64,000 nucleotides of DNA from an uncultured Aquabacterium sp. GTDB taxonomy: Bacteria; Pseudomonadota; Gammaproteobacteria; Burkholderiales; Burkholderiaceae_C. Below the pieces are notes generated by a model that saw nothing but the letters and a program-made list of their open reading frames with translations, was not told the origin of the DNA and made no database searches. This document shows, piece by piece, positions 25,080 through 38,527 of the stretch; the stretch's first letter is position 1; every line of letters starts with the position of its first letter. The stretch covers positions 10,189-74,188 of the forward strand of contig NZ_CANBCC010000008.1 of assembly GCF_947366995.1 (NCBI RefSeq), read 5' to 3'. The translations under genes were made by a program, and so were the position numbers.

Positions 25080-26447
25080 TCACGGAAGCAGCGCTGGCAG
25101 CCCGGACACGCCCAGGCCGATCACGGCACAGGCTGCCAGCAGCGGCATCACACCGACCTTGAAGCGGAACAAGGCGACCGCGGCCCCCAGTGCGATCACG
25201 GCGGAAGCCGAATCGAAAGGACCTTGAAAGCCCCGCGGCCACAGCACGTGGTACGCGAAGAACAAGGCCAGATTGAGGATCACGCCCACGACCGCGGCCG
25301 TGATGGCCGTCAATGGCGCCGTGAACTTCAGCTTGCCGTGTGTGGACTCGATCAGCGGTCCCCCCGCCAGGATGAAGACAAAGGACGGCAAGAAGGTGAA
25401 GAAGGTCACCACGCTGGCCGCGGTGGCACCGGCCAGGAACAGCGCATCCGGCCCGAACAGTTGCTTGAACCATCCCCCAACAAAGCCCACAAACGCCACC
25501 ACCATGATCAGCGGGCCGGGCGTCGTTTCACCCAGCGCCAGGCCGTCGATCATCTGCGGCCCGCTGAGCCATTGGTGGTGCTCGACCGCGCCCTGGTACA
25601 CATAAGGCAGCACCGCATAGGCACCGCCAAACGTCAGCAAGGCGGCCTTGGTGAAGAACCATCCCATCTGCGTCAGTGCGCCATCAAGGCCTTGCACAGC
25701 GATCAGGATGGCCATCGCCCCCAGCCAGAGTCCCGCACCCGTGGCCAGCACGGTTGCAAGGCGCGCGCAGCGGAACAGCGCATGGGGCGGTGCCGGCGTG
25801 TCATCGTCAATGAGGGCGGGACCATAGCTGGCCTGCGCCCCGCCGTGTCCCCCGCCCATGGCGAATACGTGGGGTGCAAAGCGGGCACCCACTGCGCCCA
25901 GGACCCCGGCCGCCAGCACGATCAACGGAAACGGCGCGTCGAGTACGAAGATGGCCACGAAAGCAGCACCCGCAATCGCCCACAGCCACCGGTTCTTCAA
26001 GGCGCGGCTGCCGATGCGATGCGCAGCATGGATGACCAGCGCCGTGACCGCAGGCTTGATGCCGTAGAAGAGCCCGGCCACCAGCGGCAGGTGCCCGAAG
26101 GCCAAGTAGACCCAGGACAGGCCGATGAGGATGAACAGCGAGGGCAGCACGAACAGGGCGCCCGCCACGATGCCACCCCGCGTGCGGTGCATCAGCCAGC
26201 CGATGTAGGTGGCCAGCTGCTGTGCCTCGGGGCCGGGCAGCAACATGCAGTAGTTGAGCGCATGAAGAAACCGCCGCTCGCTGATCCAGCGGCGCCGCTC
26301 CACCAGCTCCGTGTGCATGATGGCGATCTGACCGGCGGGCCCGCCGAAGCTGATGAAGCCGAGCTTGAGCCAGAAGCGGAACGCCTCCCAGAAACCAACG
26401 GGCAAGGGAACGTGGGGGGTGGGCGATGGAACGAGGGCGCCAGGCAT
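25080..26447 (-). CDS. chrA: Chromate efflux transporter (long-chain CHR)
   Basis: SFGGPAGQ, LPGPEAQQ, FGGAYAVLP, TPGP; GGAG SD before ATG at 26447. Confidence 0.92.
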   Translation of the reverse strand: MPGALVPSPTPHVPLPVGFWEAFRFWLKLGFISFGGPAGQIAIMHTELVERRRWISERRFLHALNYCMLLPGPEAQQLATYIGWLMHRTRGGIVAGALFVLPSLFILIGLSWVYLAFGHLPLVAGLFYGIKPAVTALVIHAAHRIGSRALKNRWLWAIAGAAFVAIFVLDAPFPLIVLAAGVLGAVGARFAPHVFAMGGGHGGAQASYGPALIDDDTPAPPHALFRCARLATVLATGAGLWLGAMAILIAVQGLDGALTQMGWFFTKAALLTFGGAYAVLPYVYQGAVEHHQWLSGPQMIDGLALGETTPGPLIMVVAFVGFVGGWFKQLFGPDALFLAGATAASVVTFFTFLPSFVFILAGGPLIESTHGKLKFTAPLTAITAAVVGVILNLALFFAYHVLWPRGFQGPFDSASAVIALGAAVALFRFKVGVMPLLAACAVIGLGVSGLPALLP

Positions 26448-26476
26448 GCGGCGTTCTCCTGGGTGCATGGTCTTGA

Positions 26477-27355
<879 letters not shown>

Positions 27356-27970: not shown

Positions 27971-27989
27971 GCGAATGATTCTCATTAAC
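27971..27989. promoter_or_regulatory. Fur box
   Basis: GCGAATGATTCTCATTAAC, 14/19 match to GATAATGATAATCATTATC, upstream of the heme uptake genes. Confidence 0.8.
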
Positions 27990-27990
27990 A

Positions 27991-28242
27991 ATGAGTTCAT
28001 CACGCACTTGCGCGGGCCCTCTCCCGCTGACCCCCGTGGACACCGCCACTTCCCTCGCCCCTGTCCAGCATCGTCTGCTCCACCTGCTCGACGAGTTGAT
28101 CCGTCATGACGGCTATGGCTCGCTGCGGATCGACGTGCGTCTGCTCAAGCGGGGTCAGAAGGAAGTGATTCTGGACTGCGGCAAGCAGCATCGCTTCGTG
28201 GTCGACGTGCCTGCGGCAGCCGGCAAAGACGCCAGCGCGTGA
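27991..28242 (+). CDS. Small hypothetical protein immediately after the Fur box (start uncertain, possibly GTG at 28036)
   Basis: Core LLDELIRHDGYGSLRIDVRLLKRGQKEVILDCGKQHRFVVD looks like a compact alpha/beta domain; typical codon usage. Confidence 0.7.
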   Translation: MSSSRTCAGPLPLTPVDTATSLAPVQHRLLHLLDELIRHDGYGSLRIDVRLLKRGQKEVILDCGKQHRFVVDVPAAAGKDASA

Positions 28243-28371
28243 GCGTTTTCTGCCCGAGGGCATGGCGCCCTGGGCCTGCGGACTTCTCCGTCCGACTGCA
28301 TCCATCCTCGTCAACCTGCTGTTGTGGCCTTTGTGGGTAAGGAACACGGCGCCCTCTTCAGAGAGCACCTC

Positions 28372-29067
28372 ATGTCCTTGTCTGTACGCGCCTTCGCGCC
28401 CGCCCTTTCGTCCATCGCCCTGGCCCTCGCGGCTGCCGGTCAGGCCCACGCCACGGCCGGTCAATGGGACAGCAGCGTCGCCGGCTTCAGCGGCATCGGC
28501 GCCTCGGCTGCCACGCCGTGGATCGCTTCGCCGGCCACCGGCAGCACGTATGCCGAGTGGAACGCCATCTTCAGCTACCCGTCCGACAACACGCCCGACA
28601 TCGGTGGCGCCGGCACGCTGACGGAAACCACCGGCTCGGCCTTCCCGACCAGCGGCGGCAACATCTACAGCATCTCCGGCGCCTCGGCGTTTTCGCTGGA
28701 TCTGGGCACGGCGGCGGCCGGCACGTGGGACGTCTACCTGCGCGTGTCGACCGTGGGCTCGGCCGTGGCCGACACCGCCAAGCTCAACGGCGTGAGCGCC
28801 ACCCGTGTGACCACCTTCAGCCAGGCCATCACCGGCGGCTTCGGTGGCACCGAGGAAGAGAGCCTGTGGAAGTGGACGGTGACGCTGAGCAGCCCCGCCA
28901 CCTGGCTGACGAGCTTTGCGGCCAGCGGCGCGCACATGAGCCTGGACCAGGTGGCCTTCTACGCCGTGCAAACGCCGGCTGCCGCCGTGCCGGAACCGCA
29001 GACCTGGGCCCTGATGCTCGCCGGCCTGGGTGCCATGGGGGCGTTGCAGCGCCGTCGCCGCGCCTGA
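28372..29067 (+). CDS. Secreted PEP-CTERM sorting-domain protein
   Basis: Signal peptide ending AHA; C-terminal VPEPQTWALMLAGLGAMGALQRRRRA. Confidence 0.92.
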   Translation: MSLSVRAFAPALSSIALALAAAGQAHATAGQWDSSVAGFSGIGASAATPWIASPATGSTYAEWNAIFSYPSDNTPDIGGAGTLTETTGSAFPTSGGNIYSISGASAFSLDLGTAAAGTWDVYLRVSTVGSAVADTAKLNGVSATRVTTFSQAITGGFGGTEEESLWKWTVTLSSPATWLTSFAASGAHMSLDQVAFYAVQTPAAAVPEPQTWALMLAGLGAMGALQRRRRA

Positions 29068-29094
29068 AGTCGACCGAACCGATCTGGAACAGAG

Positions 29095-31380
29095 GTGAAG
29101 TCGGCCTCGACCTCGTCGTGCTGGCGGGCGGTGGGCAGCGGGTTCGCGGTTGCCGCCGCCTGCCTGCCTGCCGCCCTGCCGGTTTCCGCGGCCACGGCCG
29201 CTGCAGACGCAGACGCTGAACAGGAGATGCCCGCGGTGCAGGTGAAGGCCAGCGCCGCGCGGCCGCCGGAGGGCGTCACGATGGCGCCCACACAGGCGCG
29301 CACCACCGTCACCGAAACGACGCTGAGGCAGCGACAGCCGGACTCGGTCTTCCAGGTGATGGACGAGGTGCCGGGCGTGACCGTGCAGGGCGGACCGCGC
29401 AACAGCGGGATGGGCTTCAACATCCGCGGCTACAGCGACAACGAAGACGTGCGCATCGAGCTCGACGGAGTGGTGAAAGGCTTCGAGAAGTACCGCTTCG
29501 GCGGCACCTTCATCGAGCCGGAGCTGCTCAAGTCCATCGAAGTGCGCCGGGGCGCGCAGGTGGAAAGCGCCGGCGCGCTGGGCGGCACCGTGAGCGCCAC
29601 CACGCGCGATGCGCGCGACATGCTGCGCACCGGGCAACAGTGGGGCGCCCGCGCCCGCATCGGACACGCCACTAACAACGACGAGCGCCAGGCCATGGTG
29701 GCCGTGTATGGCCGCCCCACCGAGGCCACGGACACGGTGCTGGCCTTTACGCGCCGCACCGGAGGCAACATCAAGCTGGCAGGGGGCGACACCCTGCCCT
29801 TGTCCGAGGTCGACATGGGCAGTGGCCTGGCCAAGGCGAGCTGGTGGGTCAACGACGCATGGCGGCTGAGTGCCAGCTGGATCCGCTACCGCGATCAGGG
29901 CCTGCAGGCCTACGACACGTTCAGCGGCACCATGGGCACCGGCACCACGCCCATGGCGCAGGTGGGCACGTTCGGCCAGGTGCAACGCCGCATCGATGAC
30001 GACACCGTGTCGATGCAGGCGCTCTGGAGTGACGAGGCCGCAGGCCACGAATGGCAGACCACGCTGGGCCGCAGTCTCACGCGCGTGCAGGACCACTTTG
30101 AACCCGGATGGTCGGTGTTTTCGCTGTCAACCGAGGTGGACGACGATGTGCACCAGACGCATCTGACGCTGGACAGCCGACTGCGCTGGCAGTTGCTCGG
30201 CAGACCGTCCAACCCTTCCATGGCCTCGTCCGGCACACTGGGGCAGCAGCTTGCGCTGCGGGCCGGTCTGCAAGCTGGCCACAGTGATCGTGCCGCCGAG
30301 CGCGTGACCGGCAATGCGGCGCTCAACCAGGCGCTCTACCGCGACGGCTACAACCCCGCGCAGCCGCCTGGCACCCGTGACACGCGGGGCACCTTTCTGC
30401 AACTCGACTGGCGCCTTGGCCGCATGCAGGTGCTGCCTGGTGTGCGCTGGGACCAGATCGCGTCCACAGTGCACGGCGCCAATGCCGACCTGCTGAAGGC
30501 CGCGGGCGAGCCGGACACCGTGCGCTACACCGAGGTCTCGCCCAGCCTGACCTTGAGCTATGCGCTGGTGCCCGAGCGGTGGACCGTGTTCGCCACGACC
30601 GCCCAGTCCTTCCGCCCGCCCCTGCTGGACGAGGCCTTCATGCGGGCCGGCTACGGTGTGTGCAACAACAACGCGCTGCTGCGCATGGGCACCGGCACGA
30701 CGCCACGCGTGCCGGGCTATGCCCCCGGTGCCCAGGTCGCGCCGTCCACGGGCATCTGCAGCAACGCCTTCGTGCCCGAGACGTCGGAAGGCTTCGAGGC
30801 CGGCGTGCACACCCGCCAGGTCGATCTGTTCGGGCCGCGCAGCACGGCCCAGGCCAAGCTCACCGTCTTCTTCAACCGCACCGAGCACCTCCTCGAATCG
30901 CTGATGGCCGAGCCCGGCGGCAGTGGCCGCCTGATCCAGCCCGGCTGGGAACGACGCCGCGGGATCGAGCTGGAAACCAGTGTGGGCTGGGCTCAGTGGC
31001 GCACGCGTCTGGCCGCCTCGCGCCTGCGCGGTCGCCAGTTCGACGGCCTGTTCGAAAGTGACCTGGTCGGCGTGCCTGGCGACCGGGTGCATCTGAGCTT
31101 CGGGCGCCAACACCCGTGGGGCGAATGGGGACTGCGCTGGCAACAGGTCTGGGCACGCCGCTACTACGTGGACACCGCCCGCACCCAGGTGGCCGAAGCG
31201 CCGGGCTACCGGCTGCTGGGCGCCTCGCTGACCTGGCGACTGAACCCCACTTGGGAAACCACCCTCACCGCAGACAACCTCGCCGATGCGAGCTACCGGC
31301 TCGACAACGGACTGAGCGGCGCACTGGGCACCGCCGGCCCGGGTCGCAACGTCCGCATCTCCCTCAGCGCGCGCTACTGA
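29095..31380 (+). CDS. TonB-dependent receptor, probably for heme
   Basis: Signal peptide, plug (PGV.V.GGPR, IRG, IEV.RG), FRPP, C-terminal GRNVRISLSARY; upstream of hemS-hmuTUV. Confidence 0.88.
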   Translation: MKSASTSSCWRAVGSGFAVAAACLPAALPVSAATAAADADAEQEMPAVQVKASAARPPEGVTMAPTQARTTVTETTLRQRQPDSVFQVMDEVPGVTVQGGPRNSGMGFNIRGYSDNEDVRIELDGVVKGFEKYRFGGTFIEPELLKSIEVRRGAQVESAGALGGTVSATTRDARDMLRTGQQWGARARIGHATNNDERQAMVAVYGRPTEATDTVLAFTRRTGGNIKLAGGDTLPLSEVDMGSGLAKASWWVNDAWRLSASWIRYRDQGLQAYDTFSGTMGTGTTPMAQVGTFGQVQRRIDDDTVSMQALWSDEAAGHEWQTTLGRSLTRVQDHFEPGWSVFSLSTEVDDDVHQTHLTLDSRLRWQLLGRPSNPSMASSGTLGQQLALRAGLQAGHSDRAAERVTGNAALNQALYRDGYNPAQPPGTRDTRGTFLQLDWRLGRMQVLPGVRWDQIASTVHGANADLLKAAGEPDTVRYTEVSPSLTLSYALVPERWTVFATTAQSFRPPLLDEAFMRAGYGVCNNNALLRMGTGTTPRVPGYAPGAQVAPSTGICSNAFVPETSEGFEAGVHTRQVDLFGPRSTAQAKLTVFFNRTEHLLESLMAEPGGSGRLIQPGWERRRGIELETSVGWAQWRTRLAASRLRGRQFDGLFESDLVGVPGDRVHLSFGRQHPWGEWGLRWQQVWARRYYVDTARTQVAEAPGYRLLGASLTWRLNPTWETTLTADNLADASYRLDNGLSGALGTAGPGRNVRISLSARY

Positions 31381-31428
31381 GCGCGCCCCCCTTGCTCTCT
31401 TTCCTTGCCAAACCCATGGAGCCCGACG

Positions 31429-32517
31429 ATGACACCGACCTCGAACGACCTCTTGCGCTCGTCCTTCGCCGCCCTGCGGGCCGAGGGCTTGCGCGCCCGC
31501 GACGCGGCCGCCCGCATGGGCCTCAGCGAGGGCGCCGCAGTGGCTGCCCATGCTGTGAGCCCGACCCTGCCGGCACACCCGGCCGGCAACCTGCTGCACG
31601 CCGTCGTGCTCGACGCTGACTGGCTGGGTCTGTTGCGCGGCCTCGAACAGGTCGGCGAGGTCATGGCGCTGACCCGCAACGAGCACATCGTGCACGAGAA
31701 GATCGGCGTGTACCGACACGCCTCTGCACAGGGTCCCGTGGGCCTCCTCGTCGGCCCGGAGATCGACCTGCGGCTGTTCTTCTCCCACTGGCACGTGGGC
31801 TTCCATGTGGCCGAATCAACGCCGCGCGGGGTGCAGCAAAGCCTGCAGTTCTTCGACCGGCATGGCGTGGCGGTGCACAAGGTGCATGCCCGACCGCAGA
31901 CCGATCTGGATGCCTGGCATGCCCTGGTGGCGCGCCATCGCAGCCCCCTGCCCTCGCCCGCTTTCGACCCCGGCGAGCCCGGCCGCACGCCGGACCGCCC
32001 AGACGCCGAGATCGACGCGCTCGGACTGGGTGAGGCCTGGGCTTCGATGCATGACACGCACGAGTTCTTTGATCTGCTCAAGCGCTTCCAGGTGGGCCGC
32101 CTGCAGGCGCTGCGGCTGATGGAGGGCGTGCACACGCGCCGTGCCCCGGCCGATGCGACCGCCCGCCTGCTGGCCCAGGCGCGCGACGCCAGCTTGCCCA
32201 TCATGGTCTTTGTCGGCAGCCGAGGCTGCATCCAGATCCACACCGGCCCCGTCCATCGCGTCGAACCCATGGGCCCGTGGATCAATGTGCTGGACGATGG
32301 CTTCAACCTGCATCTGCGTGAAGACGCCATCCATGAAACGTGGCTGGTCAGCAAGCCGACCGACGACGGACCGGTGACCTCCATCGAGGTGTTCGACCGC
32401 CACGGCGATGTGATCGTGATGTTCTTCGGCGCGCGCAAGCCCGGCCAGCCCGAGCGACCCGACTGGCGGGCGCTGGCCTTGGGCCTGACCTCGGCCGCCG
32501 AGCGGGAGGCCGCATGA
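31429..32517 (+). CDS. hemS: HemS/ChuS/PhuS heme trafficking or degrading protein
   Basis: RARDAA, MALTRN...VHEK.G, DLR.F..HW, HDTHEFF, VGSRGCIQIHTG. Confidence 0.92.
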   Translation: MTPTSNDLLRSSFAALRAEGLRARDAAARMGLSEGAAVAAHAVSPTLPAHPAGNLLHAVVLDADWLGLLRGLEQVGEVMALTRNEHIVHEKIGVYRHASAQGPVGLLVGPEIDLRLFFSHWHVGFHVAESTPRGVQQSLQFFDRHGVAVHKVHARPQTDLDAWHALVARHRSPLPSPAFDPGEPGRTPDRPDAEIDALGLGEAWASMHDTHEFFDLLKRFQVGRLQALRLMEGVHTRRAPADATARLLAQARDASLPIMVFVGSRGCIQIHTGPVHRVEPMGPWINVLDDGFNLHLREDAIHETWLVSKPTDDGPVTSIEVFDRHGDVIVMFFGARKPGQPERPDWRALALGLTSAAEREAA

Positions 32518-33386
32518 TGCGGCGTCGCCACCTGTTCGCCCTCGCCCTGACGCCCTGGATGACGGACGTGAAGGCCGCTCCGACAGCAACAGGGCGCCCG
32601 CCGCGGCTTGTGACGGTTCACGGCAGCCTGACGGAGATCGCCTTTGCACTGAAGGCGCAAGCCACGCTGGTGGGCACCGACACGACGAGTGCCTACCCGC
32701 CCGCCGCACAGCAGACCACCAAGGTGGGCTACATGCGCAGCCTGTCCGCGGAGGGCCTGCTCGCGCTGCAGCCGACCGCCGTCCTGGGCACCGAGGAGGC
32801 CGGACCCGCCGTGGTGCTGGCACAGGTCCGCGCCGCGGGCATCCCGGTCACCCTGGCCGCATCACGCCACCGCTTTGAAGACGTGACCGACAAGATCCAC
32901 CTGGTCGCCCAAGCCACAGGGCGCGGTCCGGCCGGTCGCGACGTCGCAGCGAGCCTGCAGCGCCAATGGCAGACGACGCAGGCACAGGTGGCACGCACGA
33001 CAGCGTCACGCCTGGCCCGCAAGGCCGCGGCGCCGCGGGTGTTGTTCGTGATGGCGCACGGCGGCGCCGCGATGACCGCCGGCACGGACACCGCCGCCGA
33101 TGCGGTGCTGGGCCTGGTTGGCGCATCGAACGCGCTCACAGGCGTGCGGGGCTACCGCGCCCTCAACGCGGAAGCCGCCGCCGCCGCCCAACCGGACGTC
33201 GTCCTCACCACCACCGAGTCGCTGGCGTTCGTGGGCGGCGCCGAGCGCTTCTGGCAACAGCCGGGCCTGGCCCTGACGCCCGCCGCGCGGCACCAGCGCC
33301 TGATCGCGCTGGACGCCATGGGGCTGCTCGGCTTCGGGCCGCGCATGCCCGCCGTACTCGACGACCTCAGGCGGCAACTGGCATGA
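32514..33386 (+). CDS. hmuT: Heme ABC transporter periplasmic binding protein
   Basis: GSLTEI.FAL, D.TS.YP, VGYMR.LSAEG (Tyr heme ligand), LGFGPR. Confidence 0.88.
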   Translation: MMRRRHLFALALTPWMTDVKAAPTATGRPPRLVTVHGSLTEIAFALKAQATLVGTDTTSAYPPAAQQTTKVGYMRSLSAEGLLALQPTAVLGTEEAGPAVVLAQVRAAGIPVTLAASRHRFEDVTDKIHLVAQATGRGPAGRDVAASLQRQWQTTQAQVARTTASRLARKAAAPRVLFVMAHGGAAMTAGTDTAADAVLGLVGASNALTGVRGYRALNAEAAAAAQPDVVLTTTESLAFVGGAERFWQQPGLALTPAARHQRLIALDAMGLLGFGPRMPAVLDDLRRQLA

Positions 33387-34501
33387 GCGCGACGACGGTG
33401 CCGCGCCCGGCAGACCCGCCACCGATTGCATCCACCCGCCCGCATGTTGACCCACGCTGGGTCTGGGCCATCGGGCTGCCTTTGCTGGTGGCTGCCCTCG
33501 CCTTCGCCGCCACCCAGGGGGCCTATGCCCTCACCACCGATGACCTCGGACGGCTCTGGCTGTTGTGGCAGCAGCCAACTGGCTCACCTCATGAGCCTTC
33601 TCTGGCTGGTGCGCAGGTGTTCTGGCACATTCGCGCACCGCGCCTGGCCATGGCGGTGCTGGCGGGCGGCGCCCTCGGCCTCAGCGGTGCACTGGTTCAA
33701 GGGCTGTTCCGCAATCCACTGGCCGACCCCGGCCTCATCGGCGTGAGCGCGGGCGGCGCGCTCGGCGCGGCCACCTGCATCGTCGTGCTGCCGCTCGCGG
33801 GGTCGGTGCTGCCGGGATTCAGCCAACGAGGGATCGGGGCATGGGCCACGATGCTGGCCGCGTTTGCCGGTGCGCTCTTCGTCACCGCCCTCGCCTGGCG
33901 CCTGGCACGCCGGCAAGGCCGCATCCAGGTCGCGCAGCTGCTGTTGGTTGGCGTGGCCATCAATGCCCTGGCCGGCGCCGGGCTGGGCCTGCTCACCTAC
34001 CTGGCCAATGACACACAGCTGCGGGCCCTCACCTTCTGGCTGATGGGCAGCCTTGCACCGAGCCAGTGGCCCGCCGTGATGGCCGTGTGCCCATGGGTGG
34101 CTGCTGCGGTGCTGCTCGCCCCCGCCCTCACCCGGTCGCTTGATGCACTCGCCCTCGGTGAGGCGCAGGCGCACCTCATGGGCGTGCGCATCCGCCGCGT
34201 CCAGCGAGCCTCGGTCGCACTGACTGCGCTTGCCGTGGGCAGCGTCACCGCGGTGATCGGCATGGTGGGCTTCATCGGACTGGTGGCCCCTCACATCGTG
34301 CGGCAGCTCTTCGGGCCGCGCCACCGGGTGGTCCTCCCGGGGTCGGCCCTGCTCGGGGCCAGCCTGGTCGTGCTGGCCGACACGGCGGCGCGCACGCTGT
34401 TCGCACCGGCCGAGTTGCCCCTCGGGGTGCTGACGGGCCTCATGGGGGCGCCGGCATTTCTGTGGATCCTGCAGCGGCGCCCGGCCGCTTCGACAACTTG
34501 A
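33383..34501 (+). CDS. hmuU: Heme ABC transporter permease (FecCD)
   Basis: RAPR, QGLFRNPLADP..IGVS.G, FWLMGSL, IGFIGLVAPH, ELPLG. Confidence 0.9.
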   Translation: MSATTVPRPADPPPIASTRPHVDPRWVWAIGLPLLVAALAFAATQGAYALTTDDLGRLWLLWQQPTGSPHEPSLAGAQVFWHIRAPRLAMAVLAGGALGLSGALVQGLFRNPLADPGLIGVSAGGALGAATCIVVLPLAGSVLPGFSQRGIGAWATMLAAFAGALFVTALAWRLARRQGRIQVAQLLLVGVAINALAGAGLGLLTYLANDTQLRALTFWLMGSLAPSQWPAVMAVCPWVAAAVLLAPALTRSLDALALGEAQAHLMGVRIRRVQRASVALTALAVGSVTAVIGMVGFIGLVAPHIVRQLFGPRHRVVLPGSALLGASLVVLADTAARTLFAPAELPLGVLTGLMGAPAFLWILQRRPAASTT

Positions 34502-34515
34502 AAGGCGCATGGCGC

Positions 34516-35307
34516 ATGGAACTGCACGCAAAGCACCTTCGTGTCGAGCATGGCGGCCGCATGGTGCTCGACGTTCCCGAGCTCCGGCTCCACGCCGGCC
34601 GGGTACACGCCCTGCTGGGTCCCAATGGCGCCGGCAAATCCACCTTGCTGAACGCCATGGCGGGCCTCGATCCTGCACTGAGCCACGCCATCACGCTGGG
34701 CAGCAGGCCCTTGTCCAATTGGCCGCCACAAGAGCTCGCCCGTCAACGTGCGTTGTTCTCGCAGGAGCACACGGTGCCCTTCGATTTCAGCGTGCACGAC
34801 ATCGTCGAGATGGGTCGGTTTCCCCATGTTGAATGTCCACATCCTCGAGAAGCTCATCTGGTGAGCGAGTCGTTGGCCCGGACGGGAGCCGCGCATCTCG
34901 CGGGTCGTCTGCTCGCCACGCTGTCAGGGGGAGAAAAGGCCCGAGTTCACCTCGCTCGCGTGCTGGCGCAGATCACCGCACTGCCTGACGACCAGCGACC
35001 CCGATGGCTCTTTCTCGACGAACCCACTGCGGCGCTGGATCTCGCCCACCAGCAGGGCGTGATGCGCCTGCTGAGCACGCTGGCGTCGCAGGGATGCGGT
35101 GTCGTGGTCGTGCTGCACGACATGAACCTCGCCAACAGCCATGCCGACCAGATCGTGGTGTTGGCCCGAGGGCGCATCGTCAGGGTCGGCACCAGCAGCG
35201 AGGTCCTGCAGCCGCCGCTGATCCGAGAGGTGTGGGGCGTCGCATGCGAACGGGTGCCGCTGCCCTTCCCGCCCCTGGGTCAGCGCGAGTGGCTGACCTT
35301 TCCCTGA
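34516..35307 (+). CDS. hmuV: Heme ABC transporter ATPase
   Basis: GPNGAGKSTL, LSGGEKARVHLARVLAQ, LDEPTAALD..HQ, VLHD.NLA. Confidence 0.9.
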   Translation: MELHAKHLRVEHGGRMVLDVPELRLHAGRVHALLGPNGAGKSTLLNAMAGLDPALSHAITLGSRPLSNWPPQELARQRALFSQEHTVPFDFSVHDIVEMGRFPHVECPHPREAHLVSESLARTGAAHLAGRLLATLSGGEKARVHLARVLAQITALPDDQRPRWLFLDEPTAALDLAHQQGVMRLLSTLASQGCGVVVVLHDMNLANSHADQIVVLARGRIVRVGTSSEVLQPPLIREVWGVACERVPLPFPPLGQREWLTFP

Positions 35308-35311
35308 AGAC

Positions 35312-36637
35312 TCATGGCTCGATCGCAGGCTCCGGCTGCTGCGCCAGGTAGAGCTTCACCATCTCGGCCTTGAGCAAGGGCGACGTCCAGTCCCCCTCCC
35401 TCACGCGCTTGGCAATCGACGGCGTCAGCAGCCCCTTCTCCTTCAGCTGGGCCGACAACACCTGCAGCAGCCCGGCCCGCACCGGCGCGGGCAGGTGCGC
35501 AATCTCGGCCACGGCGCGGTCGAAGCGCTCGCGCCGGGCTGCTTCGGTGGCGTCCACCACCACCGCCTGCGCCGGCATCGCCGTCTCCCTGGGCGCCCGC
35601 TCGGCGGGGGCAGGTTCCGCCACGCGCGGCGAGGCCTCGGCGGCCCGCGGGTCCAGCAGGCTCATCAGGTACATCAAAGGGCTGCGCACGGGCGAAAGGT
35701 CGGTGCGCTGCACGCGCGCTCGGGTGTCCAGCAAGGCGCGCACGAGGCGGTCCTCGCTGTACTGCGCCACCAATGGCGCCAGCTGGGCATCTTGCAGACC
35801 CAGTCCCTCGGCCGCCTGACGAACACGTGTGGGCTGGGGGGCCGGCGCGGTGTCCACGGCTGCCCAGGCGGCATCGGCGGCTGTGGAGGCGCCCTTGTCC
35901 TGGCGCTTCTTGCGCACCGCGAACTGCACCTCGGTGACCGCCCTGCCCTGCCGGTGCTCGAGCAACTCCACCTCGATATCCGACTTTTCATTGATCTCGG
36001 CAATGGCGGCCAGCACCGATTCGTTCTTGACCTTGCGCCACTCGCGCTTCTTCGGCGAGGACGACAGCGCGGACACCCACCACGCCGGCGAGGCCCGGTT
36101 CGTCACGCCGGAAGGGTTGTTCTTGTAGCGGCTGCAGATGTCGTACAGCGCGATCGCACCATAGCTTTCGAGCCTGGCGAGAATGGGCAGATCCTGCAGA
36201 GTCCAGAGCTTGGGGTCCAGCAAGGCCTTAATGAGGTCCGGCGGAAACGCCCATTGCACCAGACGCTCACCGTGCCGCATCTCGAATGCAGCCTGCGACA
36301 ACAGCGCCATGTCGCGCCATTCCGGGCCGTTGGTCGTGCCCGGCGCCTCCCAGGTCATGGCCATCTTGCGCATCTCGCGCAGATAGCCTTGCGCCAGGGT
36401 GCGTGACTCGGTGCTGCTGCCGGCCAGCAACAACGCGCGCCGCAACGGCATTTCAAAAAGGTGCGTCGCCTCGGGTACACGCCCCAGCGACCTCATCTGT
36501 TGCTGAGCCTCCCACAGCAACACGGTATAGAGCTTGCGGGCCACGGCGGTCATTCCCTTGTCCTTGCTGATCATCACCAGCACCTCGTTGGGCTTGCGCA
36601 AGGCTGGCAGGGAGGCGGTCAAGGGGTCGTCGCTCAT
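35312..36637 (-). CDS. repA: Replication initiator protein (Rep_3 / winged-helix type)
   Basis: LRKPNE, RKLY.VLL, LYDIC.RY..N, K.....AI.EIN..SDI; divergent from parAB across an iteron array. Confidence 0.82.
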   Translation of the reverse strand: MSDDPLTASLPALRKPNEVLVMISKDKGMTAVARKLYTVLLWEAQQQMRSLGRVPEATHLFEMPLRRALLLAGSSTESRTLAQGYLREMRKMAMTWEAPGTTNGPEWRDMALLSQAAFEMRHGERLVQWAFPPDLIKALLDPKLWTLQDLPILARLESYGAIALYDICSRYKNNPSGVTNRASPAWWVSALSSSPKKREWRKVKNESVLAAIAEINEKSDIEVELLEHRQGRAVTEVQFAVRKKRQDKGASTAADAAWAAVDTAPAPQPTRVRQAAEGLGLQDAQLAPLVAQYSEDRLVRALLDTRARVQRTDLSPVRSPLMYLMSLLDPRAAEASPRVAEPAPAERAPRETAMPAQAVVVDATEAARRERFDRAVAEIAHLPAPVRAGLLQVLSAQLKEKGLLTPSIAKRVREGDWTSPLLKAEMVKLYLAQQPEPAIEP

Positions 36638-36715
36638 GGCATGTCAGTGTACTCGATCTGTCCTTCGTTGATTGCGCGCTCGGACAGTTGGAGGTCCGGC
36701 GTACCGGCCAGCCGC

Positions 36716-37048
36716 TGTCCGGTTTTCAACCGCCACGGCGATATTTCCTTCGTCCGGTTGATTTCTGGACAGTTTCGAGACTGGGAAACCGGCTTCCGGT
36801 CCGAAGGCTGAGCCGCACAGCCCGGTTGAAAACTGGACATCCCCGCCGTGATCGGGCATCCGATGCGCCCGCCGGCTGCGGCCGCGTCCCCTGCGGTCGT
36901 GCGGGATGCATTCCGTCCCGCTGCGGCGGACCCACCCTGTGGACAAACCGGTTGGAATCCGGACACTCCGGGGGTCGTCAGGACAGAAGCGGGCGCGGCA
37001 TGGACACACGCGGTTGGAACATGGACACTGGCGGTTCAGAACTGGACA
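36716..37048. repeat. Iteron array, consensus CGGTTGRAA..YGGACA
   Basis: 17-bp copies at 36755, 36823, 36949, 37011, 37032; degenerate copies at 36969 and 36990; inverted copy at 36716-36732; GGACA ends recur at 36945, 36965, 36985, 37006, 37027, 37048 (20-21 bp period). Confidence 0.82.
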
Positions 37049-37089
37049 GAGCGGATCTGTAAGTGCTTGTCACTCAACGGTTTTTCGGG

Positions 37090-37098
37090 CTATCCACA
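37090..37098 (+). promoter_or_regulatory. DnaA box-like site next to the AT-richer origin segment
   Basis: CTATCCACA, one mismatch to TTATCCACA, just after the iterons. Confidence 0.55.
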
Positions 37099-37305
37099 AG
37101 CTTAGATCTACTTGTATTCGTATTGAAGAGACTTGAATCCAGGAGCACTGACGCCGGTAAGATGTCTAAAACACGGTGCTGGCAGCGCGGCTCGGTGCAG
37201 CAGGGGTGTCGTCACGCCGCGATGGCCGCCATATGGCACGGACCGCGCTGATCCCACGTTTTAAATCAAATAACTCAAAATTCGTGGAATGGATGGTCTT
37301 GGCGG

Positions 37306-37329
37306 TGTGCTTCGTTAGAATGAAGCACA
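37306..37329. promoter_or_regulatory. Inverted repeat upstream of parA (possible par operator)
   Basis: TGTGCTTC-N8-GAAGCACA. Confidence 0.45.
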
Positions 37330-37354
37330 TACAGTCCACCATCATTCATACACG

Positions 37355-38527
37355 ATGCTCAGAGACGATCGAAAAGCTTCTCTCCAAGACATTGAACGCA
37401 TGTCTGCGCGGGCGGAAGTGGCCCTTGAAAAAATCCGCGGCACGCTGTTGAGCCCCGATGCGCGCAAGAGCGCGCCGGTGTTCTCCATCAGTCAACTGGA
37501 GCACTTCACCGGCGCCGACCGCAACAAGATCAACTACGCGGCCCGCAAGGGCGAGCTGCCCGAGGGCACGATGCCCGATGGCGGCGGCCGTCGCACCTGG
37601 ACCACCGAGGAACTCCAGAAGTGGACACGGCACTTCCGGGCAGATCGACTGCGCCCGGAAGGCCTAGCCGGCATCACGATCTCGGTCGCGAACTTCAAGG
37701 GCGGCGTCACGAAAACGACCACTGCGGCCACCTTGGCCCAGGGGCTGAGCCTGCGCGGGCACAAGGTGTTGCTGGTCGACGTGGATCCCCAGGCTTCGTT
37801 GACCACGCTTTTTGGCCTGCTGCCGGGCGTCGAGATCGATGAGGAACACACGCTCTCGCCCCTGTTCAGCGGGGACGCGACCGACGCACGCTATGCCGTG
37901 CGCAAGACCTATTGGCCGGACCTGGATCTGATTCCGGCGATGACGCGGCTGTACGCTGCCGAGTTCAAGCTGCCTGCGCGCCAGAAGGACAACGCGGACT
38001 TCGAATTCTGGAAGGTGCTGGACCTCGGGCTCGACCCCTTGCGCGACGAGTACGACGTCATCGTCATCGACACCCCCCCTTCCCTTTCCTACACAACGAT
38101 CAACGCCGTGATGGCATCGGACGGACTGGTGGTCCCCGTGCCGCCCAGCACGCTGGATTTCGCCTCGCTGAGCCAATTCTGGAGTCTGTATCTGGACATT
38201 GCGCACAGCCTGAGCGAGTTGCGGGGTGACGCCAAGAAGTTCGAGTTCGTCAACATCCTGGCTTCGCGCGTCGACGCCAATGATGCGTCGAGTCGCATCG
38301 TGCGGGGGTGGCTGCGCGAGGTGTACGCCGAGCGGGTCCTGGCGACTGAAATCCCGCGGACCTCGATTGCTGGCACGGCGGCGGTCGGTTTTGGCACAGT
38401 CTATGACCTACCGAAGAGCGCTGCCAGCGCTGGCACGTATGCCCGCGCATTCGACGCCTATGAGGCATTCATCGATGAAGTCGACGCCCAATTGCAAAGT
38501 GTGTGGGCCGGTTGGAGGGACGAATGA
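37355..38527 (+). CDS. parA: ParA type Ia partition ATPase with N-terminal HTH
   Basis: NFKGGVTKTT, VDVDPQASLT, IVIDTPP. Confidence 0.93.
   Translation: MLRDDRKASLQDIERMSARAEVALEKIRGTLLSPDARKSAPVFSISQLEHFTGADRNKINYAARKGELPEGTMPDGGGRRTWTTEELQKWTRHFRADRLRPEGLAGITISVANFKGGVTKTTTAATLAQGLSLRGHKVLLVDVDPQASLTTLFGLLPGVEIDEEHTLSPLFSGDATDARYAVRKTYWPDLDLIPAMTRLYAAEFKLPARQKDNADFEFWKVLDLGLDPLRDEYDVIVIDTPPSLSYTTINAVMASDGLVVPVPPSTLDFASLSQFWSLYLDIAHSLSELRGDAKKFEFVNILASRVDANDASSRIVRGWLREVYAERVLATEIPRTSIAGTAAVGFGTVYDLPKSAASAGTYARAFDAYEAFIDEVDAQLQSVWAGWRDE

What the first reader, a model, noticed from the sequence alone, without database searches (positions are those of the whole stretch)
28372..29067. PEP-CTERM surface protein embedded at the head of a Fur-boxed heme uptake operon (candidate tethered hemophore)
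Seen: a signal peptide, a beta-rich domain of about 175 aa (TYAEWN, SGGNIYS, SLWKW, GAHMSLDQV) and a VPEP-TM-RRRR tail. It is co-oriented 27 nt before the TonB receptor, then hemS-hmuTUV, all downstream of a Fur box. Established: PEP-CTERM proteins are exosortase substrates usually linked to EPS or floc formation; known hemophores (HasA, HmuY, NEAT, HusA) are other folds. Inference: this may be a new exosortase-anchored iron or heme scavenger. The only His of the mature domain lies in a His-Met pair, a plausible heme ligand set, and several Tyr are present.
Basis: partly seen in the sequence, partly recalled or inferred. Interest (0 to 1): 0.8.

Follow-up and report, generated by a model that had tools for sequence, protein, structure and literature searches.

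The report
Exosortase-anchored partner of heme receptor
A small secreted protein with a PEP-CTERM sorting tail is encoded, in dozens of freshwater bacteria, directly in front of a heme-type outer-membrane receptor and behind an iron-sensing switch, so it is probably a new kind of helper for capturing heme, although heme binding has not been shown.

Summary
ORF 28372-29067 encodes a 231-aa protein with a signal peptide, a roughly 177-aa all-beta domain and a PEPxxWA-type PEP-CTERM tail. It lies 27 nt before a TonB-dependent receptor (TBDR), which is followed by hemS-hmuTUV. The only strong Fur box in the 64 kb lies upstream. The window is an Aquabacterium megaplasmid.

The domain matches no Pfam or NCBIfam model, no solved structure and no paper. 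AlphaFold gives a confident jelly roll that resembles none of the known hemophore folds.

The genomic link is strong. A heme/hemoglobin-family TBDR follows the gene in 24 of 24 genome loci and in 20 of 20 informative closer metagenome loci. It does so even where the tail is replaced by other anchors. A conserved 68-aa cytoplasmic protein usually leads the unit, so the PEP-CTERM gene is second, not at the head.

The His-Met ligand idea fails: His188 is Ser in 60 of 116 homologues. No His, Met or Cys is specific to the receptor-linked clade.

Best reading: a surface co-receptor or hemophore-like partner of a dedicated heme TBDR clade. Heme binding, surface location and the presence of an exosortase remain untested.

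The parts
27971..27989 (+). Fur box (GCGAATGATTCTCATTAAC)
   Evidence: It matches the GATAATGATAATCATTATC consensus at 15 of 19 positions and is the only site with 13 or more matches in the 64 kb. A box scoring 13-16 lies within 700 nt upstream of the family gene in 15 of 24 genome loci, and one scoring 12 or more in 18 of 24; in the loci checked it lies 40-150 nt upstream of the small ORF. A contig from RNA-labelled run X26 begins at 27989.
28036..28242 (+). Small conserved cytoplasmic protein (68 aa from GTG 28036; alternative ATG at 27991). It is the first gene of the unit and its function is unknown.
   Evidence: A. olei annotates the orthologue as a hypothetical protein. The homologue search found 90 relatives, all unnamed and without Pfam domains. 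It is present in 19 of 24 genome loci and in 16 of 21 TBDR-linked metagenome loci. Invariant residues are H24, G26, G28, GQKEVI and GKQ.R.V. AlphaFold gives pLDDT 84 with one helix and three strands, and there is no fold or PDB match.
28372..28452 (+). Sec signal peptide of the PEP-CTERM protein (aa 1-27, AHA|T cleavage site)
   Evidence: This is a reading of the sequence. Ala27 is at least 90% conserved across 116 homologues. There is no lipobox Cys. No signal-peptide predictor was available.
28453..28983 (+). Uncharacterised beta jelly-roll domain (aa 28-204), the family-defining part
   Evidence: No Pfam hit even at E<=10. AlphaFold2 gives pLDDT 91.3 and an all-beta model. Foldseek against PDB finds only weak CBM6/CBM35, TNF-like and ephrin-LBD matches. 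The exhaustive profile search found 494 cluster representatives at E<=1e-3.
28984..29067 (+). PEPxxWA-type PEP-CTERM sorting signal (VPEP, TM helix, RRRR) plus the stop codon
   Evidence: PF07589 at 33.2 bits, NF035944 at 39.6 bits and TIGR02595 at 21.8 bits, all above their cut-offs.
29095..31380 (+). Partner TonB-dependent receptor of the heme/hemoglobin family, with the variant motif FRPPLLDE...C-loop-C...VPE (from nt 30610) in place of FRAP/His/NPNL
   Evidence: Plug and barrel domains are present. The best family is TIGR01785 TonB-hemin at 257.5 bits, below its cut-off of 316.85. A variant of the same motif (FRPP or FRAP start, a Cys in the loop) was read in 7 of the 10 receptors near family genes that were inspected.
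31429..32517 (+). hemS/chuX-type cytoplasmic heme-binding/degrading protein (alternative TTG start at 31405)
   Evidence: PF05171 HemS at E=1.3e-79 and PF06228 at E=1.9e-54. The start codon follows the A. olei annotation.
32514..33386 (+). hmuT periplasmic binding protein
   Evidence: PF01497 at E=1.5e-26. Its ATG overlaps the hemS stop codon as ATGA.
33383..34501 (+). hmuU permease
   Evidence: PF01032 FecCD at E=3.4e-84. It overlaps hmuT by ATGA.
34516..35307 (+). hmuV heme ABC ATPase
   Evidence: NF010068 heme ABC transporter ATP-binding protein at 281.8 bits, above the 261-bit cut-off.

Best explanation
The gene encodes the accessory half of a two-part, iron-repressed heme uptake receptor.

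Proposed steps (all inferred):
1. The protein is exported by Sec.
2. It is held by its C-terminal helix until an exosortase cleaves at the PEP motif and passes it to the cell envelope or surface.
3. There its jelly-roll domain works with the TBDR encoded 27 nt downstream, a dedicated clade of the heme/hemoglobin receptor family. It either captures heme or a heme-carrying protein and hands it over, or it forms part of the receptor's extracellular binding site.
4. Heme then passes through HmuT and HmuUV to HemS.

Shown:
- the protein's architecture;
- the conserved gene pairing with heme-family TBDRs across genera and across different anchor types;
- the conserved Fur box;
- operon-like spacing.

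Inferred: surface location, processing by an exosortase, contact with the TBDR, and the ligand.

If heme is bound directly, the His188-Met189 pair is unlikely to be the ligand set. The invariant Tyr99, or the clade-specific polar cluster E62, D72, E85, R124, E161, E163 and Q193, are better candidates for function.
For: Gene context:
- Close family: all 24 loci from 24 contigs of the one-genome-per-species collection have a TBDR homologue directly downstream. 19 of 24 also have the small ORF and 19 of 24 have hemS within 7 kb. The trio stays together even where hemS-hmuTUV has moved upstream (L018) or lies divergent (L021).
- Rhodocyclales: in Methyloversatilis the order is small ORF, family member, then hemS-hmuTUV. 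The TBDR lies 1.2 kb upstream, with exbBD-tonB and feoAB nearby.
- Distant members, at 29-40% identity to one another and 38-40% to the window protein where measured, keep the pairing under other architectures. L030 reads exbB-exbD-tonB, small ORF, domain with a VPLPA-type tail, TBDR. L032 reads small ORF, two tandem copies, TBDR, hemS-hmuTU. L036 reads a copy with TSP3 repeats and no PEP-CTERM, a second copy, TBDR, hemP, hemS-hmuT.
- Metagenome scan: 20 of 20 informative loci among the 24 closest have the TBDR within about 100 nt downstream.

Receptor identity: all six partner TBDRs tested score best against TIGR01785 TonB-hemin. One passes the curated cut-off, at 324.9 bits against 316.85.

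Regulation and transcription:
- The Fur box is conserved.
- Contigs from RNA-labelled runs span the PEP/TBDR junction: X24/25 cover 28247-31783, X26 covers 28990-30276 and X27 covers 28386-29461.

The protein itself:
- Confident all-beta model, pLDDT 91.
- Purifying selection.
- Charged and polar residues are conserved only in the TBDR-linked clade.
Against: - No binding data exist.
- No His, Met or Cys is conserved. His188 is Ser in 60 of 116 homologues.
- Tyr99 is also invariant in the 30 distant members examined that have no TBDR nearby, so it may be structural rather than a ligand.
- The nearest folds are carbohydrate-binding modules, and only weakly: E about 1e-3, target-normalised TM-score at most 0.54.
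- In 17 of 21 TBDR-linked metagenome loci no hemS lies within 6 kb.
- The window's TBDR scores below the TonB-hemin cut-off and has no His between the FRPP motif and the second Cys.
- How PEP-CTERM proteins cross the outer membrane is not established (my own knowledge).
- No exosortase is annotated on the related plasmid, and the chromosome could not be searched.
- The RNA label of the runs is the tool's guess, and DNA may be present in them.
Confidence: 0.5

Rival explanations
1. The same two-part receptor exists, but its ligand is not heme. The domain and its TBDR would import another iron source or metal complex, and the hemS-hmuTUV neighbours in Aquabacterium would be a secondary association.
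For: 17 of 21 TBDR-linked metagenome loci have no hemS within 6 kb. L030 instead carries FMN_bind and PepSY_TM genes downstream. The clade-specific residues are mostly acidic (E62, D72, E85, E161, E163), which would suit a cation. The window's TBDR has no His in the loop after the FRPP motif, where my own knowledge places the conserved His of canonical heme receptors, and several partner TBDRs score below the TonB-hemin cut-off.
Against: TonB-hemin is the best-scoring family for every partner TBDR tested, and one passes the cut-off. HemS and HmuTUV are adjacent in 19 of 24 genome loci and in Methyloversatilis, L032, L036, L049, L056, L058 and L061. In Methyloversatilis the family gene sits next to hemS rather than next to the TBDR. 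A classical hemP lies in L036.
Confidence: 0.17
2. The protein stays in the periplasm. It would remain tethered to the inner membrane by its uncleaved C-terminal helix, or be released into the periplasm, and relay or chaperone heme between the TBDR and HmuT rather than acting at the surface.
For: After Sec export, the PEP-CTERM helix first places the domain in the periplasm (established topology of the signal). No route across the outer membrane is known for PEP-CTERM cargo (my own knowledge). No exosortase could be confirmed here.
Against: Relatives carry anchors or modules typical of extracellular proteins: GC-type dockerin, TSP3 repeats, PKD domains and multi-copy arrays. HmuT already fills the periplasmic carrier role. 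The gene pairs with the TBDR rather than with hmuT in the 20 of 20 informative metagenome loci.
Confidence: 0.12
3. It is an ordinary matrix or floc PEP-CTERM protein, CBM-like and polysaccharide-binding, that merely happens to sit next to a heme operon.
For: The fold resembles CBM6/CBM35 weakly. There are sub-threshold matches to FxDxF and PepA-type PEP-CTERM families over the C-terminal half. PEP-CTERM proteins are classically tied to EPS and floc formation (my own knowledge).
Against: The TBDR is adjacent in 24 of 24 genome loci plus 20 of 20 informative metagenome loci, across orders and across different anchors. Shared Fur box, 27-nt spacing and junction-spanning RNA contigs also argue against chance. 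The family scores fall below the cut-offs, and the only above-cut-off matches are to the tail.
Confidence: 0.06

Closest known systems
HmuY-HmuR of Porphyromonas gingivalis (the hmuYRSTUV operon)
   Same: A small (about 200 aa) all-beta, envelope-tethered accessory protein is encoded immediately upstream of, and co-oriented with, a heme TBDR in an iron-regulated operon. The description of HmuY is from my own knowledge.
   Different: There is no sequence or fold relationship: no HmuY Pfam hit and none among the 50 listed Foldseek matches. HmuY is a lipoprotein, whereas this protein has no Cys and carries a PEP-CTERM tail. HmuY ligates heme through two His, and here no His is conserved.
Bipartite TonB receptors with a surface lipoprotein partner (HpuA-HpuB, TbpB-TbpA, LbpB-LbpA of Neisseria)
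   Same: The partner gene lies directly upstream of a TBDR of the hemoglobin/transferrin/lactoferrin family (TIGR01786 is the second-best hit, at 230 bits). The partner is beta-rich and proposed to be surface-exposed, and the unit is Fur-controlled.
   Different: The anchor is a PEP-CTERM signal rather than a lipid plus Slam. The domain family is unrelated and far smaller than TbpB. The hosts are environmental Betaproteobacteria with no obvious host protein to target.
Secreted hemophores HasA (with HasR) and HphA/hemophilin (with HphR)
   Same: A dedicated extracellular protein that serves one cognate heme TBDR encoded beside it.
   Different: Those are released through a type I or type XI/Slam pathway and have different folds. 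No similarity was detected. The His/Tyr ligand pair of HasA has no conserved counterpart here apart from Tyr99.
PEP-CTERM/exosortase cargo such as PepA of Zoogloea (floc formation), and the FxDxF PEP-CTERM family
   Same: The sorting signal is the same. The C-terminal half plus tail gives sub-threshold similarity: NF038126 at 46.3 bits against a cut-off of 50, and floc_PepA at E=1.8e-5 for a relative.
   Different: The genomic context is heme uptake, not EPS. The N-terminal two thirds of the domain are not covered by those models. The same domain also occurs with anchors other than PEP-CTERM.
CBM6/CBM35-type jelly rolls
   Same: These are the nearest solved folds, for example 5la2, 5fui, 2w1w and 7ehg.
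   Different: The matches are marginal: best E=8e-4, target-normalised TM-score at most 0.54 and 9-19% identity. No sugar-binding evidence or carbohydrate context exists.

Membership tests
PEP-CTERM (exosortase-sorted) proteins | C-terminal tripartite signal: PEP motif, hydrophobic helix, basic cluster | tested here: met
   PF07589 at 33.2 bits (cut-off 20.7), TIGR02595 at 21.8 (cut-off 16) and NF035944 PEPxxWA-CTERM at 39.6 (cut-off 35), over residues 205-230.
PEP-CTERM (exosortase-sorted) proteins | N-terminal signal peptide | tested here: met
   By reading the sequence: a hydrophobic core and an AHA|T site, with Ala27 at least 90% conserved in 116 homologues. No signal-peptide predictor was available.
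PEP-CTERM (exosortase-sorted) proteins | An exosortase (EpsH/Xrt) gene in the same genome | not tested
   None is annotated anywhere on the 366-kb A. olei plasmid pTB101, which does carry two other PEP-CTERM proteins.
FxDxF family PEP-CTERM protein (NF038126) | Whole-protein score above the curated cut-off | tested here: not met
   46.3 bits against a cut-off of 50. The match covers only residues 133-229, profile positions 69-165.
Known hemophore or hemophore-like families (HasA, HmuY, NEAT, HusA, HphA) | Sequence or fold homology to one of these families | tested here: not met
   No Pfam hit for the mature domain even at E<=10. The PDB profile search gave nothing below E=0.17. None of these folds is among the 50 listed Foldseek PDB matches.
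Known hemophore or hemophore-like families (HasA, HmuY, NEAT, HusA, HphA) | Binds heme and delivers it to a cognate TBDR | not testable with these tools
   This needs hemin titration and transport assays. Conservation does not support His188/Met189 as ligands.
Bipartite TBDR systems with a surface partner (TbpB/HpuA type) | Partner gene immediately upstream of the TBDR and co-oriented with it | tested here: met
   The gap is 27 nt here. The arrangement holds in 24 of 24 genome loci and 20 of 20 informative closer metagenome loci.
Bipartite TBDR systems with a surface partner (TbpB/HpuA type) | Partner is a lipoprotein (lipobox Cys) | tested here: not met
   The protein contains no Cys at all.
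TonB-dependent heme/hemoglobin receptors (TIGR01785), applied to the partner gene | Score above the curated cut-off; FRAP/NPNL boxes with a conserved His (the box description is from my own knowledge) | tested here: inconclusive
   The window TBDR scores 257.5 bits against a cut-off of 316.85, yet this is its best family. A partner TBDR in L030 passes at 324.9 bits. The motif is FRPP...C-loop-C...PE, with no His inside the loop.
Fur regulon | Fur box in the promoter region | tested here: met
   The site matches the consensus at 15 of 19 positions and is unique in the 64 kb. A box scoring 13 or more lies upstream in 15 of 24 genome loci and one scoring 12 or more in 18 of 24. Fur binding and iron response were not testable.

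The most novel reading that the evidence does not exclude
This uncurated jelly-roll domain defines a new, widespread class of Gram-negative heme (or hemoprotein) capture proteins. They would work as obligate partners of their own clade of heme TBDRs and be displayed through the exosortase pathway or interchangeable surface anchors. That would be the first nutrient-uptake role for PEP-CTERM cargo, and a hemophore-type system found in free-living freshwater bacteria rather than in pathogens.
Probability: 0.4. Interest if true: 0.8.

Novelty: new variant of a known kind. Interest (0 to 1): 0.62.

Why it matters
PEP-CTERM/exosortase cargo is abundant in environmental bacteria, yet almost none of it has an assigned function beyond floc and EPS biology. 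Here a cargo family has a specific, testable job suggested by very consistent gene context. If the job is confirmed, three things would follow:
- A new fold and a new anchoring mode would join the short list of heme-capture accessory proteins (HasA, HmuY, HpuA, HphA, NEAT).
- The associated TBDR clade with the FRPP/Cys-loop motif would be defined as two-component receptors.
- The exosortase field would gain a cargo with an easy growth phenotype (heme as sole iron source) for studying sorting and surface display.

The conserved 68-aa leader protein is a further unknown component of heme-uptake loci.

Tried and rejected
- Pfam and NCBIfam scans of the mature domain and of 28 diverse relatives matched only the anchors: PEP-CTERM, VPLPA-CTERM, dockerin, TSP3 and PKD.
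- A PDB sequence profile search gave nothing below E=0.17.
- Foldseek against PDB gave only marginal CBM, TNF-like and ephrin-LBD jelly rolls.
- The His188-Met189 ligand idea was rejected on conservation.
- I looked for heme-ligand-type residues specific to the TBDR-linked clade and found only acidic and polar ones.
- The small ORF was tested as HemP and rejected. It gave no Pfam hit even at E<=10 and no PDB sequence match, and its alpha-plus-three-strand model has no significant fold match (best E=0.11).
- The extra PEP-CTERM proteins beside the pair in A. soli and Methyloversatilis were tested as distant paralogues and rejected (hhalign E=0.2 and 0.58).
- Rfam gave nothing between 27500 and 29300.
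- The consensus scan found no sigma-70 promoter on either strand and no terminator on the + strand between 27600 and 29400. Its one terminator-like hit lies on the minus strand, at a rate expected by chance.
- Seven literature searches (PEP-CTERM or exosortase with heme, TonB, hemophore, iron or Aquabacterium, and PEPxxWA) found nothing describing such a system.
- The whole A. olei plasmid annotation was read for an exosortase, and none is listed.
- A first metagenome scan with a too-diverse alignment failed and was repeated with a narrower one.
Full report
**1. What is in the sequence**

ORF 28372..29067 (+) encodes 231 aa. It has three parts:
- a Sec-type signal peptide (aa 1-27, AHA|T);
- an all-beta region of about 177 aa;
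- the tail VPEPQTWALMLAGLGAMGALQRRRRA.

The tail passes the curated cut-offs of Pfam PEP-CTERM (33.2 bits against 20.7) and of NCBIfam PEPxxWA-CTERM (39.6 against 35). His188 is the only His of the mature protein, and there is no Cys.

Downstream genes:
- a TonB-dependent receptor (TBDR) at 29095-31380, 27 nt after the stop. Its best family is TIGR01785 TonB-hemin at 257.5 bits, below the cut-off of 316.85;
- hemS (31429-32517), hmuT (32514-33386), hmuU (33383-34501) and hmuV (34516-35307).

Two of these junctions are ATGA overlaps.

Upstream, GCGAATGATTCTCATTAAC at 27971-27989 matches the Fur consensus at 15 of 19 positions. It is the only site with 13 or more matches in the 64 kb.

Between this box and the PEP-CTERM gene lies a conserved small ORF (28036-28242, 68 aa). 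The PEP-CTERM gene is therefore second in the unit, not first.

**2. Where it comes from**

The region is 94.8% identical to the 366-kb plasmid pTB101 of Aquabacterium olei. There the orthologue is annotated only as a 'PEPxxWA-CTERM sorting domain-containing protein'. The operon abuts the plasmid replication and partition genes. Against A. olei the gene shows 26 synonymous and 6 non-synonymous codon differences, which indicates purifying selection.

**3. The family**

A word-seeded search found 132 proteins of 159-337 aa, most of them 210-250 aa. The sources that name an organism give Aquabacterium and Rubrivivax.

An exhaustive profile search with the mature domain alone found 494 cluster representatives at E<=1e-3, of which 243 are at E<=1e-10.

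Of 145 retrieved representatives:
- 73 end in a PEP-CTERM tail;
- 28 end in a VPLPA-like tail;
- the others carry GC-type dockerin tails, TSP3 or PKD modules, or two to four tandem copies of the domain.

No Pfam-A or NCBIfam model covers the domain itself. There is no PDB sequence match. No paper in the held library describes it.

**4. Structure**

AlphaFold2 with 116 sequences gives pLDDT 91.3 and pTM 0.81: a beta sandwich or jelly roll followed by the C-terminal helix.

Foldseek against PDB returns only marginal jelly rolls (CBM6, CBM35, TNF-like, ephrin LBD). The best E-value is 8e-4 and the target-normalised TM-score is at most 0.54. No HasA, HmuY, NEAT, HusA or HphA fold is among the 50 listed matches.

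The fold is therefore generic and does not name the ligand.

**5. Gene context, the main evidence**

Close family. In 24 loci from 24 contigs of the one-genome-per-species collection (Aquabacterium, Leptothrix, Rhizobacter and unclassified Burkholderiales), a TBDR homologue directly follows the gene in all 24. The small ORF precedes it in 19, and hemS is present in 19. The trio small ORF, domain gene, TBDR stays intact where hemS-hmuTUV has moved (L018, L021).

Methyloversatilis (Rhodocyclales). The order is small ORF, family member (48% identity), then hemS-hmuTUV. The TBDR lies 1.2 kb upstream, and exbBD-tonB and feoAB are nearby.

Distant members keep the link under other architectures:
- L030: exbB-exbD-tonB, small ORF, domain with a VPLPA tail, TBDR.
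- L032: small ORF, two tandem copies, TBDR, hemS-hmuTU.
- L036: a copy with TSP3 repeats and no PEP-CTERM tail, a second copy, TBDR, a classical hemP, hemS-hmuT.

Metagenome scan of 80 loci:
- Among the 24 closest to the query, 20 of 20 informative loci have the TBDR immediately downstream.
- Of the 56 more distant loci, 11 were too short to judge, 35 have no TBDR in reach and 10 have one nearby.
- Many of the distant loci that lack a TBDR are planctomycete-like and sit beside DUF1559-type proteins.

The domain superfamily is thus broader than heme uptake. A large proteobacterial clade, which includes the window's gene, is bound to the TBDR.

**6. The partner receptor**

All six partner TBDRs tested score best against TonB-hemin, and one exceeds the cut-off at 324.9 bits. 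In seven of the ten receptors near family genes that were inspected, a variant of the motif FRPPL[IVL]DE...C-loop-C...PE was read. By my own knowledge this occupies the place of the FRAP / conserved His / NPNL region of canonical heme receptors. In the window it starts at nt 30610 and has no His inside the loop. This looks like a receptor clade specialised to work with the accessory protein.

**7. Regulation and transcription**

A Fur-like box scoring 13-16 of 19 lies within 700 nt upstream of the family gene in 15 of 24 genome loci, and one scoring 12 or more in 18 of 24. In the loci checked it lies 40-150 nt upstream of the small ORF. In the window, a score of 13 or more occurs once in 64 kb.

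Public runs labelled RNA by the tool (a guess; DNA may be present) hold contigs of related Aquabacterium strains:
- X24/25, one 3550-nt contig covering 28247-31783;
- X26, 28990-30276;
- X27, 28386-29461.

All three cross the PEP/TBDR junction. This argues against separate transcription.

Contig 5' ends fall at 27989 (X26), directly after the Fur box. They also fall at 28247/28248 (X24/25 and, independently, X29), 5 nt after the small ORF's stop. I cannot tell whether the second position is a start site or a processing site.

No consensus sigma-70 promoter, no + strand terminator and no Rfam element was found.

**8. Ligand residues**

Across 116 homologues, position 188 is His in 56 and Ser in 60, and position 189 is Met in 87 and Leu in 28. 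The proposed His-Met pair is therefore not a family property.

Invariant residues are W63, P75, E85, N97, Y99, F107, L123, R124, G129, E163, W168, F182 and S190-L191-D192-Q193.

I compared 51 TBDR-linked members with 30 members that have no TBDR nearby:
- The core W63, P75, F91, T93, G96-N97-I98-Y99, G129 and D192 is shared by both groups.
- E62, D72, E85, R124, E161, E163 and Q193 are conserved only in the linked clade: 86-94% there against 0-20% in the other group.

These clade-specific residues are charged or polar, not classical axial heme ligands. They would suit a protein-protein interface or a cation site at least as well as a heme pocket. Tyr99 remains a possible tyrosinate ligand, but its conservation outside the linked clade makes a structural role equally likely.

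**9. Interpretation**

What is shown:
- a PEP-CTERM-tailed protein of a new domain family;
- co-inheritance, and apparently co-transcription, with a dedicated clade of heme/hemoglobin-family TBDRs;
- a position behind a conserved Fur box;
- usual co-occurrence with a heme ABC importer and HemS.

What I infer is a two-part receptor. The accessory protein would be displayed in the envelope. It would either capture heme or a hemoprotein for the TBDR, or complete the TBDR's binding site. This is functionally analogous to HmuY-HmuR or HpuA-HpuB.

I put 0.5 on that mechanism and about 0.85 on the weaker claim that the protein functions together with the TBDR.

Rivals:
- a non-heme ligand (0.17);
- a periplasmic relay (0.12);
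- a bystander matrix protein (0.06).

The protein is a member of the PEP-CTERM class by its signal, although the exosortase is unverified. It is not a member of any known hemophore family.

**10. Limits**

- Heme binding, surface exposure, iron response and exosortase dependence could not be tested.
- No exosortase is annotated on pTB101, although two more PEP-CTERM proteins are. The chromosome could not be queried.
- TBDR detection in the metagenome loci used an iterated search seeded on the window's receptor. Very divergent receptors could have been missed.

Noticed in passing
window 28036-28242 (+); also L030 2186-2476, L032 5660-5869, L028 7001-7192: A highly conserved 62-106-aa cytoplasmic protein (core HDG[YF]GS..V[DE]VR.LKRGQKEVI..CGKQ[YH]RFVVD, with invariant His24 and near-invariant Cys48) leads the unit behind the Fur box. 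It has no family, name or fold match. It takes the place that HemP/HmuP holds in other heme loci, and a classical HemP is present instead in L036.
   Followed up: partly
window 27989 and 28247-28248: Contigs in RNA-labelled public runs start at 27989 (X26), directly after the Fur box. They also start at 28247/28248 in two independent studies (X24/25 and X29), 5 nt after the small ORF's stop. In X29 the stretch 28248-29291 has depth 17.5 against 2-4 for the rest of the operon. This may be a second start site, or a processing site that enriches the PEP-CTERM message.
   Followed up: partly
window 30610-30780 (TBDR aa 506-560); L030, L039, L046, L050, L059, L024, L074: Receptors next to family genes carry FRPPL[IVL]DE...Cys-loop-Cys...PE (FRAP in L074, which lies on the opposite strand) where, by my own knowledge, canonical heme receptors have FRAP / conserved His / NPNL. 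Seven of the ten inspected show it. This may be a signature of a two-component receptor clade.
   Followed up: partly
L024 5993-7111 (A. soli); L028 2873-3637 (Methyloversatilis): Other PEP-CTERM proteins that are unrelated to this family (hhalign E=0.2 and 0.58) sit directly beside the pair or directly upstream of the heme-type TBDR. More than one PEP-CTERM family may therefore be recruited to these receptors.
   Followed up: partly
L035 6001-8817; L062-L117; proteins P0221, P0302, P0311: Distant members of the domain superfamily have no TBDR nearby. Many sit beside DUF1559/N-methyl (planctomycete-type) proteins and beside a roughly 450-aa 'DRW.YPFNATPG...' protein. That protein is fused behind two to four copies of the domain in some proteins of 700-1044 aa. 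Their function is unknown.
   Followed up: no
L032 6001-7469; L036 244-2329; L055, L056, L058: Tandem duplication: two diverged copies of the domain gene precede one TBDR in several loci. In L036 the first copy has TSP3 repeats instead of a sorting tail.
   Followed up: partly
window 35312-38527 and the plasmid pTB101 as a whole: The heme-uptake operon ends 4 nt before the plasmid replication initiator gene (35312-36637, minus strand), with parA at 37355-38527. The related megaplasmid also carries nar, nor, a cbb3-type oxidase, catalases and cytochromes c, all of them heme enzymes, and in addition its own exbD-tonB and T2SS genes.
   Followed up: no
window 26528-27355 and 25080-26582: Just upstream of the Fur box lie a lone modA (molybdate-binding protein) with no modBC beside it, and a chrA chromate efflux gene on the opposite strand. 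They look unrelated to the heme unit.
   Followed up: no
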